A stretch of 64,000 nucleotides of DNA, taken from the NCBI RefSeq assembly GCF_988242995.1, contig NZ_OZ547043.1; one strand, 5' to 3'. The position numbers and the translations under genes were made by a program. This document shows positions 18,120 through 19,583 of the stretch, piece after piece. Below the pieces are notes generated by a model. That model did no database searches and was not told the origin of the DNA. It saw nothing but the letters and a program-made list of their open reading frames with translations. Every line of letters starts with the position of its first letter. Positions within the stretch are counted from its first letter, which is position 1.

Positions 18120-19583
18120 TTAACGCAGCAGAGACAGTACGTTCTGCGTGGTCTGGTTAGCCTGCGCCAGAACAGAGGTACCCGCTTGTTGCAGGATCTG
18201 CGCACGAGACATGTTAGACACTTCGGTCGCGTAGTCAGCATCTTCGATACGGCTACGGGCAGAAGACAGGTTGTTTACGGTGTTGCCAAGGTTGGTGATA
18301 GCAGAGTCGAAACGGTTTTGTACTGCACCGAGGTCAGAACGCAGATTGTCAACTTTAGCCAATGCTTTGTCGATAGTTTCGAGCGGGTTGGTGGTAGATT
18401 GCAACGATTTTGCTGCATCTTCGTTTACCAGAATCGGGCTACCACCTTCTGATTTGCTCAGATACATGACTTTATTGTTACCAGAAGCAGTCTCCGTTAT
18501 CGTTTTACCATCTGCACTAACATCGTAAGTTGCACCGTTAACAACTAACGTGCTTCCTGTTTTCTTAGCTGCATTGAGATCAAGATCGGAAAGTGTGGCA
18601 GCCTTGTTATCAACTTTGGTTGTCGTATAAAGGCCAGCGCTATTTTTGTAAACTGTCTCACTCGTAATCAAAGAAGCTTTTTTGTCAGCATCTTTCACAG
18701 TAAATGTCACTGACTTACCATCAATTTCTGCAGAATATACACCATTCCCATTGCCATCCGCTGCAGTTGTTGTTGTGAATTCAACTCCATTAAACGTGAA
18801 TTTATCATTCTGTGCTTTATTCTTAGCCGCTGCTGCGAGTGCTGTAGCATCAATCCCTGTACCAGCTATGTTTGTGTCAGATTTAGTTGTCAGTGAACCA
18901 TCTGCTGCACTAACAAAAATATCATTCCCTGTAGTATCTTTAACAGCTCCGCTATCTACGTTAACAGTATAAGCATCACCGCCAACATCATAGTTATCAG
19001 TACCTGTCGCTTTAAATTTAGAAATCAGGTCACTGCCAGTTGCTTTCTGCGCGCCATCGATATTAAAACCGTCCAGGCCGAGAGTTTTCGCATCAATTTT
19101 TGCCAGATTGATAGTGATGGTTTCACCATCATTAGCACCAACCTGAATTTTCATTTCATTATTTTCAGCAAGGACTTTCACGCCGTTAAACTGAGTTTGC
19201 TCAGATACACGGTCAATTTCTTCCAGACGTTGAGTAATTTCAGCCTGGATAGAAGAAAGATCGCTGTCAGAGTTAGTACCGTTAGTTGCCTGAACAGTCA
19301 GTTCACGTACACGCTGCAGGTTGTTGTTAATTTCATTCAGCGCACCTTCAGTGGTCTGCGCAACAGAAATACCATCATTCGCGTTACGGGAAGCCTGAGT
19401 CAGACCTTTAATATTTGCTGTAAAACGGTTAGCAATCGCCTGACCTGCTGCGTCATCTTTAGCACTGTTAATACGCAGGCCAGAAGAGAGACGTTCAATG
19501 GCGGAGCTCAGAGAAGACTGAGATTTGTTCAGGTTATTCTGGGTCAACAGCGACAGGCTGTTTGTATTAATGACTTGTGCCAT
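18120..19583 (-). CDS. fliC: flagellin (487 aa; conserved N/C termini, strain-specific central domain)
   Basis: N-terminus MAQVINTNSLSLLTQNNLNKSQSSLSSAIERLSSGLRINSAKDDAAGQAIANRF and C-terminus ...QNVLSLLR are canonical flagellin D0/D1. Confidence 0.95.
   Translation of the reverse strand: MAQVINTNSLSLLTQNNLNKSQSSLSSAIERLSSGLRINSAKDDAAGQAIANRFTANIKGLTQASRNANDGISVAQTTEGALNEINNNLQRVRELTVQATNGTNSDSDLSSIQAEITQRLEEIDRVSEQTQFNGVKVLAENNEMKIQVGANDGETITINLAKIDAKTLGLDGFNIDGAQKATGSDLISKFKATGTDNYDVGGDAYTVNVDSGAVKDTTGNDIFVSAADGSLTTKSDTNIAGTGIDATALAAAAKNKAQNDKFTFNGVEFTTTTAADGNGNGVYSAEIDGKSVTFTVKDADKKASLITSETVYKNSAGLYTTTKVDNKAATLSDLDLNAAKKTGSTLVVNGATYDVSADGKTITETASGNNKVMYLSKSEGGSPILVNEDAAKSLQSTTNPLETIDKALAKVDNLRSDLGAVQNRFDSAITNLGNTVNNLSSARSRIEDADYATEVSNMSRAQILQQAGTSVLAQANQTTQNVLSLLR

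What the first reader, a model, noticed from the sequence alone, without database searches (positions are those of the whole stretch)
18500..19200. Flagellin central domain is strain-specific (H-antigen determinant)
The fliC termini are canonical, but the 487-aa length and the Thr/Ala/Lys/Gly-rich central region (for example ...TFNGVEFTTTTAADGNGNGVYSAEIDGKSVTFTVKDADKK...) differ from the 498-aa K-12 flagellin as I recall it (not re-checked). This variable block determines H serotype and exposed epitopes.
Basis: partly seen in the sequence, partly recalled or inferred. Interest (0 to 1): 0.3.

Follow-up and report, generated by a model that had tools for sequence, protein, structure and literature searches.

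The report
Known H11 flagellin allele of E. coli
The gene is an intact copy of the well-known H11 type of E. coli flagellin, shared by hundreds of sequenced strains including O26:H11, so its variable middle part is ordinary and not specific to this strain.

Summary
Window 18120..19583 (- strand) encodes a 487-aa flagellin with canonical Flagellin_N and Flagellin_C ends. The quoted peptide is at aa 263-302. K-12 FliC is 498 aa and only about 25% identical over aa 176-400.

The central region is the H-antigen determinant, which is textbook knowledge (review PMC4853403). It is not strain-specific. The gene is the known H11 allele: it differs by 1 nucleotide (K297 instead of T297) from fliC of E. 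coli O26:H11 str. 11368. It is 100% identical to four complete genomes, and the exact protein is recorded on 414 contigs. The central block is >=99% identical in 194 of 5,426 complete E. coli genomes, including O26, O103 and O111:H11 strains.

Against its nearest relatives (H21, H8 and two untyped alleles), only aa 199-320 (window 18624..18989) differ. There synonymous divergence is saturated (dS 1.7-2.3, against about 0.1-0.3 in the flanks) and GC3 is 0.24. This is the mosaic, recombination-type pattern already described for fliC.

Promoter, ribosome-binding site and terminator are intact. Novelty: already known. Interest: low.

The only unusual thing nearby is a clean 711-bp IS200 insertion between the fliC terminator and the fliA promoter region. 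It was not seen in any genome or contig compared.

The parts
18120..19583 (-). fliC coding sequence, 487 aa plus stop; H11 allele with K297
   Evidence: ORF list; Pfam Flagellin_N / FliC-like_3rd / Flagellin_C; 100% DNA identity to four complete E. coli genomes and 99.9% to O26 / O103 strains; 1 nt from O26:H11 str. 11368
19059..19583 (-). N-terminal conserved region, aa 1-175 (filament-core D0/D1 helices by homology)
   Evidence: 72-96% identity to K-12 in 25-aa blocks; at least 90% identical in every 20-aa block (100% in most) to the H21, H8, ECOR29 and CFSAN061772 alleles; nearly identical to solved Salmonella flagellins over aa 1-175
18384..19058 (-). Central variable region relative to K-12 H48, aa 176-400 (outer domains by homology)
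   Evidence: 12-32% identity to K-12 per 25-aa block; GC 0.42, GC3 0.29; GC dips to about 0.40 in the composition profile
18624..18989 (-). H11-specific block, aa 199-320: the only part that separates this allele from the H21 / H8-like alleles
   Evidence: 30-75% aa identity per 20-aa block here, against 60-100% (mostly >=90%) elsewhere; nucleotide identity 57-62%, dS 1.7-2.3, dN 0.36-0.45, against flank dS about 0.1-0.3; a 341-bp probe inside it hits exactly 194 genomes, 190 of them at >=99%
18693..18695 (-). Codon 297, AAA (Lys); ACA (Thr) in O26:H11 str. 11368. This is the single difference from that reference
18120..18383 (-). C-terminal conserved region, aa 401-487 plus stop
   Evidence: Flagellin_C aa 401-486; 60-84% identity to K-12; 100% to the H21 / H8-like alleles
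19653..19679 (-). sigma-28 (class 3) promoter-like site upstream of fliC: TAAAGTTCGAAATTCAGGTGCCGATAC
   Evidence: Pattern TAAA-N15-GCCGATAA with 1 mismatch; 4 matches in the window against 0.38 expected by chance. A consensus match only; function is inferred
18078..18100 (-). fliC intrinsic terminator: hairpin CCCCGCCACCGGCGGGG plus T6
   Evidence: Terminator scan; conserved in strain Ch1 and K-12

Best explanation
This is the chromosomal fliC gene of an E. coli strain that carries the known H11 flagellin allele. The conserved N- and C-terminal segments (aa 1-175 and 401-487) form the helical core that polymerises into the filament. The central segment folds into the outer, solvent-exposed domains that antibodies see, so its sequence sets the H serotype. 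Compared with its closest relatives (the H21, H8 and related alleles), only a roughly 120-residue cassette (aa 199-320) differs. The divergence pattern there indicates that an old, deeply diverged segment was exchanged by recombination, not that residues changed quickly in place. The gene is intact and has a sigma-28-type promoter, a ribosome-binding site and a terminator, so it is expected to be expressed as H11 if the flagellar regulon is active. Shown here: gene identity, allele identity, the boundaries of the variable block, and the divergence pattern. Inferred from established knowledge: surface exposure, antigenic role and actual expression.
For: Flagellin domains are present. The gene lies in the canonical fliD-fliC-fliA-fliZ arrangement, as in K-12 and other genomes. 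It is 1 nt / 1 aa (K297T) from fliC of O26:H11 str. 11368. The central block also occurs in 'O111:H11 strain 88.0502' and in O26 and O103 STEC genomes. There are 194 carriers among 5,426 genomes at >=99%, and the next best match is 76-77% (H21 group). The exact protein is on 414 contigs and in 922 index blocks. Against the H21 and H8 alleles every 20-aa block outside aa 199-320 is 70-100% identical (most 100%), while blocks inside are 30-75%. Block dS is 1.7-2.3 against 0.1-0.3 in the flanks, and GC3 is 0.24. A sigma-28-like promoter and the terminator are present. [quoted passage not shown] The closest solved structures are Salmonella FliC/FljB filaments aligned end to end.
Against: One RefSeq record that encodes the same protein as the O26:H11 reference is labelled 'O176:H45'. 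This conflicts with two H11-labelled records and is most simply a labelling problem, but I did not resolve it. The structural model was poor (mean pLDDT 58). The assignment of the H11-specific block to the outermost domain therefore rests on homology and literature, not on a good model. Expression and serology cannot be tested here. The IS200 element 122 bp upstream of fliA could in principle affect sigma-28 supply and so fliC expression.
Confidence: 0.95

Rival explanations
1. The central domain is unique to this strain, a new or private H-antigen variant.
For: It differs strongly from K-12. The K297 form is the minority among complete genomes: 4 records are 100% identical and the other listed H11 genomes are 99.9%.
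Against: The DNA is identical in four complete genomes. The exact protein is on 414 contigs. The block is >=99% identical in 194 genomes. There is one conservative-scale substitution relative to the O26:H11 reference.
Confidence: 0.01
2. The K297 / T297 difference inside the H11-specific block defines a serologically or functionally distinct H11 subtype.
For: The substitution lies inside the allele-specific, presumably exposed block (aa 199-320) and changes charge. Both forms are widespread.
Against: It is a single residue out of about 120 block residues. No evidence of distinct typing was found in the papers read; one notes only that common types such as H11 have several slightly different entries (PMC3578835).
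Confidence: 0.04
3. The gene is intact but the strain does not display H11 (non-motile or altered expression), because the IS200 insertion between fliC and fliA perturbs fliA (sigma-28) expression.
For: A 711-bp IS200 sits 122 bp upstream of the fliA start, at the upstream edge of the native fliA regulatory spacer. fliC has a sigma-28-type promoter. The junction is absent from 5,426 complete genomes and from 24 contigs with the same FliC.
Against: No native base is lost: removing the insert restores the 164-bp spacer exactly. FliA protein is identical to that of strain Ch1. Salmonella Typhimurium carries an IS200 in the equivalent fliA-fliB intergenic region (PMC6415898) and, from my own knowledge, is normally motile.
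Confidence: 0.1

Closest known systems
FliC H11 of E. coli O26:H11 str. 11368 (NC_013361.1, WP_000079823.1); identical copy WP_032162419.1 in strain Ch1
   Same: 487 aa, same locus between fliD and fliA. 1463/1464 nt and 486/487 aa identical to 11368; 1464/1464 nt identical to Ch1.
   Different: K297 in the window and Ch1, T297 in 11368. The window alone has a 711-bp IS200 downstream of the terminator.
H21 / H8-like fliC alleles (strain 'O177:H21', O111:H8 strain 9662, ECOR29, CFSAN061772)
   Same: Outside aa 199-320, 20-aa blocks are mostly 90-100% identical, falling to 60-80% in a few C-side blocks of the H8 and CFSAN061772 alleles. Lengths are similar (486-492 aa), the locus is the same, and overall identity is 86-87%.
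   Different: aa 199-320 are 30-75% identical per 20-aa block, with small indels and saturated synonymous divergence. This block is what makes the allele H11.
FliC H48 of E. coli K-12 MG1655 (b1923, NP_416433.1)
   Same: Same gene, same locus, same domain plan; the ends are 60-96% identical.
   Different: 498 aa against 487. aa 176-400 are only 12-32% identical. K-12 also has about 190 nt of extra 3'UTR, annotated as the sRNA FliX, which the H11-type spacer lacks.
Salmonella enterica FliC / FljB filament structures (1UCU, 3A5X, 6JY0, 9GNZ)
   Same: End-to-end alignment (E about 1e-121 to 1e-124) with near-identity over aa 1-175 and 400-487. They are the top fold-search hits. They provide the D0/D1 core and D2/D3 outer-domain architecture used for the mechanism.
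   Different: The central region aligns only with low confidence. No solved structure of an H11 outer domain was found.

Membership tests
Bacterial flagellin (FliC/FljB family) | N-terminal and C-terminal helical flagellin domains | tested here: met
   PF00669 at 155 bits (cut-off 26.6) and PF00700 at 109 bits (cut-off 23). NCBIfam NF005294 'FliC/FljB family flagellin' at 534 bits (cut-off 387).
Bacterial flagellin (FliC/FljB family) | Located at the fliC locus, divergent from fliDST and upstream of fliAZ | tested here: met
   fliD/fliS on the + strand from 19838; fliA at 16525..17244 and fliZ on the - strand. Same order as K-12 and strains Ch1 and RM10386.
E. coli H11 fliC allele | Near-identity of the central variable region to fliC of a strain serotyped H11 | tested here: met
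   1 nt difference over 1,464 nt from O26:H11 str. 11368. 99.7% over the 341-bp specific probe to O26:H11 11368 and O111:H11 88.0502.
E. coli H11 fliC allele | Clear separation from all other H-type alleles | tested here: met
   The identity distribution of the central block is bimodal: 194 genomes at >=99%, 8 at 80-90% and the rest at 60-80%. Only complete RefSeq genomes were compared, not a curated H-type reference set.
E. coli H11 fliC allele | Agglutination of the flagella by H11 antiserum | not testable with these tools
   Serology is needed. One record with the same protein is labelled H45, which I did not resolve.
E. coli H11 fliC allele | No alternative expressed flagellin locus (flkA / fllA / flmA type) overriding fliC | tested here: inconclusive
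   tblastn of FliC against the 64-kb window finds only fliC itself. The rest of the genome is not available.
E. coli H48 (K-12) fliC allele | Near-identity of the central region to K-12 FliC | tested here: not met
   12-32% identity over aa 176-400; 487 aa against 498.
E. coli H21 / H8 fliC alleles | Near-identity of the central region | tested here: not met
   30-75% identity per 20-aa block over aa 199-320; 76-77% DNA identity over 18500-19200.

The most novel reading that the evidence does not exclude
The flagellin itself holds nothing new. The least ordinary reading left open concerns its neighbour. A 711-bp IS200 landed exactly between the fliC terminator and the fliA regulatory spacer. 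This junction is absent from 5,426 complete E. coli genomes and from 24 other contigs that encode the same FliC. The insertion might change fliA (sigma-28) expression and so decide whether this strain displays its H11 antigen at all. That would be an E. coli counterpart of the serovar-specific IS200 in the Salmonella Typhimurium fliA-fliB spacer.
Probability: 0.1. Interest if true: 0.3.

Novelty: already known. Interest (0 to 1): 0.06.

Why it matters
It matters only as annotation. The strain can be typed in silico as H11, the flagellar type of O26:H11, O103:H11 and O111:H11, which helps place the isolate epidemiologically. It opens no new biological question. Conserved ends with a hypervariable, recombining, antigenic centre is the textbook picture of fliC and the basis of existing molecular H typing. 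The refinement made here is that only aa 199-320 separate H11 from H21 / H8-like alleles. That could guide primer or peptide design, but it restates what typing schemes already exploit.

Tried and rejected
(1) Structure mapping. AlphaFold2 on a 6-sequence alignment gave a poor model: mean pLDDT 58, pTM 0.34, with only aa 190-370 at about 70-87. Foldseek against the PDB returned flagellins only, but with TM-scores near 0.2. I did not use the model to assign the H11-specific block to D3 or D2. That assignment remains an inference from homology.

(2) NCBIfam has no H-type-specific model that fits; only generic FliC/FljB subfamilies matched.

(3) Source strain. No complete genome matches the flanking 24 kb better than 99.5%, and none spans the IS200 junction. 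The source strain is therefore not in that collection.

(4) The idea that 'Escherichia coli 042' (CP042934) would supply an H18 reference was dropped. That record is a 4.69-Mb Swiss isolate, and its FliC and FliD match the H21 group.

(5) Two literature queries failed on term syntax. One further query found only a paper on H11 flagellin and fibronectin binding, which I did not read. I found no open paper giving the H11 reference length or discussing K297T.

(6) An Rfam scan of 16900-19900 found no FliX-type or other RNA family in the fliC 3'UTR; the only hit was the IS200-borne STnc490.

Full report
OBSERVATION. The window carries an ORF at 18120..19583 on the minus strand that translates to 487 aa. 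Pfam finds Flagellin_N at aa 5-142 (E 1.6e-45), Flagellin_C at aa 401-486 (E 1.2e-31) and the flagellin beta-sheet domain FliC-like_3rd at aa 285-388. NCBIfam NF005294 'FliC/FljB family flagellin' passes its cut-off. The neighbours are the canonical ones. fliD (true start ATG 19838, not the GTG 19760 that the ORF lister reports) and fliS lie divergently on the + strand. fliA (16525..17244) and fliZ lie downstream on the - strand. This is the same order as in K-12.

COMPARISON WITH K-12. In 25-aa blocks, identity is 72-96% over aa 1-175, 12-32% over aa 176-400 and 60-84% over aa 401-487; it is 55% overall. The central region is T 14%, A 13%, D 10%, G 10% and K 9%. G+C falls to about 0.40 across it, against 0.45-0.53 in the gene's ends. 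The stated coordinates 18500..19200 correspond to aa 128-362. They include some conserved D1 sequence and miss the last 38 residues of the divergent region, which spans window 18384..19058.

WHICH ALLELE IT IS. Megablast of the whole gene against 5,426 complete E. coli genomes gave 100% identity over all 1,464 nt in four genomes: Ch1 from chicken, GENOMIC22-004, CH4796 from a human, and a water isolate. It gave 99.9% in many O26 and O103 STEC genomes. A 341-bp probe from the most divergent part hit exactly 194 genomes, 190 of them at >=99%. These include 'Escherichia coli O26:H11 str. 11368' and 'O111:H11 strain 88.0502'. With a sensitive search of 18500-19200 the identity distribution is bimodal: 194 genomes at >=99%, and the next best at 76-77%, a group that includes an 'O39:H21' record. 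A direct comparison shows a single nucleotide difference from the 11368 gene: fliC nt 890 is A instead of C, so codon 297 is AAA (Lys) instead of ACA (Thr), at window 18693..18695. The exact 487-aa protein is in the 15-billion-protein collection on 414 contigs and is listed in 922 index blocks. The allele is therefore H11. It is a serotype-level feature shared by many unrelated isolates, not a strain-level one.

One discordant label exists. RefSeq 'O176:H45 strain MIN9' encodes WP_000079823.1, the same protein as O26:H11 11368. With two H11-labelled records and the O26 and O103 STEC carriers on the other side, I regard this as a labelling issue, but I did not resolve it.

WHAT EXACTLY IS H11-SPECIFIC. 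I aligned the window's FliC with alleles from strain 'O177:H21', O111:H8 strain 9662, ECOR29, CFSAN061772 and a Swiss isolate named 042. Against the H21-type alleles, aa 1-198 and 321-487 are essentially identical, with 20-aa blocks at 90-100%. The H8 and CFSAN061772 alleles also dip to 60-80% in a few blocks between aa 341 and 380. In all comparisons aa 199-320 are only 30-75% identical and contain small indels. Overall identity is 86-87%. A Nei-Gojobori calculation gives flank dS of about 0.09-0.33 with dN of 0.00-0.06. Within the block dS is 1.7-2.3, which is saturated, and dN is 0.36-0.45. Nucleotide identity there is 57-62% and GC3 is 0.24, against 0.39-0.46 in the flanks. If the block had diverged in place under diversifying selection, dN would be raised without saturating dS. 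Saturation of both indicates an old, deeply diverged cassette joined to nearly identical flanks by recombination.

HOW IT WORKS. Shown here: the gene is intact. It has a sigma-28-type promoter-like site at 19653..19679 (TAAA-N15-GCCGATAC, one mismatch; 4 such sites in the window against 0.38 expected by chance). It has a Shine-Dalgarno-like AAGGA upstream of the ATG. It has an intrinsic terminator, CCCCGCCACCGGCGGGG followed by T6, at 18078..18100.

Inferred from established knowledge: the conserved ends form the D0/D1 coiled-coil core of the filament, and the central region forms the outer domains. [quoted passage not shown] The closest solved structures are Salmonella FliC/FljB filaments, aligned end to end at E about 1e-121 to 1e-124. 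The ends are nearly identical and the centre aligns only with low confidence.

My attempt to map the block onto a model gave a poor prediction: mean pLDDT 58, with aa 190-370 at about 70-87. The fold search returned only flagellins, at low TM-score. Placing the H11 block on the outermost domain therefore remains an inference.

COMPARISON WITH WHAT IS KNOWN, AND NOVELTY. Every defining feature of a flagellin that I could test is met, and so are those of the H11 allele: sequence identity to a serotyped reference, locus, and separation from other alleles. Serology cannot be tested here. The absence of a second flagellin locus can be shown only for these 64 kb. Membership in H48 (K-12) and in H21 / H8 was tested and not met. 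I score it 0.06.

NEIGHBOURHOOD. The only unusual feature is next door. The fliC-fliA spacer is 875 bp here, against 164 bp in other H11 genomes. The extra 711 bp (17367..18077) is an IS200-family element. It encodes a Y1 transposase (PF01797, E 1e-36; NF033573). Its 5' end matches Rfam STnc490 at 146 bits. There is no target-site duplication. It lies exactly between the terminator T-tract and CTGCCCG, 122 bp upstream of the fliA start. Deleting it restores the Ch1 spacer base for base. No complete E. coli genome spans this junction, and none of the 24 contigs read that encode the same FliC has it. Copies of the element that are 99% identical occur elsewhere in E. coli, at up to 36 matching places per genome. 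Salmonella Typhimurium has a serovar-specific IS200 in the equivalent fliA-fliB spacer (PMC6415898). Whether the insertion affects fliA, and so H11 expression, is unknown. I give it about a 10% chance of mattering.

Noticed in passing
window 17367..18077 (- strand element; tnpA about 17476..17934): A 711-bp IS200-family insertion lies exactly between the fliC terminator T-tract and the fliA upstream spacer, 122 bp from the fliA start, with no target duplication. Removing it restores the 164-bp spacer of strain Ch1 exactly. The junction is absent from 5,426 complete E. coli genomes and from 24 contigs with the same FliC. It parallels the Salmonella Typhimurium-specific IS200 in the fliA-fliB spacer (PMC6415898).
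   Followed up: partly
window 17944..18067 (- strand): Rfam STnc490 (RF01405, an Hfq-binding sRNA first described in Salmonella) matches full-length at 146 bits, inside the 5' end of the IS200 element.
   Followed up: no
L010 (NZ_CP069682.1, 'O176:H45 strain MIN9') 418..1881: This RefSeq record is labelled H45 but encodes WP_000079823.1, the same flagellin as O26:H11 str. 11368. Either the serotype label is wrong or another locus determines its H type.
   Followed up: partly
window 18078..18119 compared with L001 3913..4107 (K-12 fliX): K-12 has about 190 nt between the fliC stop codon and the terminator, containing REP-like sequence and annotated as the sRNA FliX. The H11-type 3'UTR here is only about 40 nt and keeps just the terminator hairpin, so most of the K-12 FliX sequence is absent.
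   Followed up: partly
window 19760..21250 (+ strand): The ORF lister extends fliD to a GTG at 19760. The real start is ATG 19838, which gives 470 aa with no differences from the FliD of strain Ch1 (WP_000146099.1). A perfect sigma-28 consensus, TAAA-N15-GCCGATAA, sits at 19773..19799 inside the spurious extension.
   Followed up: yes
window 19600..44000: The flanking flagellar region (fliDST, amyA, fliE-R, dgcQ) matches no complete E. coli genome better than 99.5% over 24 kb. The best matches are duck and pig isolates, and ETEC H10407 matches at 99.1%. The source strain is not in the complete-genome collection.
   Followed up: partly
L002-L009 (fliD annotations next to fliC): FliD protein accessions co-vary with the fliC allele. 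WP_000146099.1 goes with H11, WP_000146092.1 with the H21 group, and WP_000146095.1 with H8. This suggests that the filament cap gene is exchanged or diverges together with fliC.
   Followed up: no
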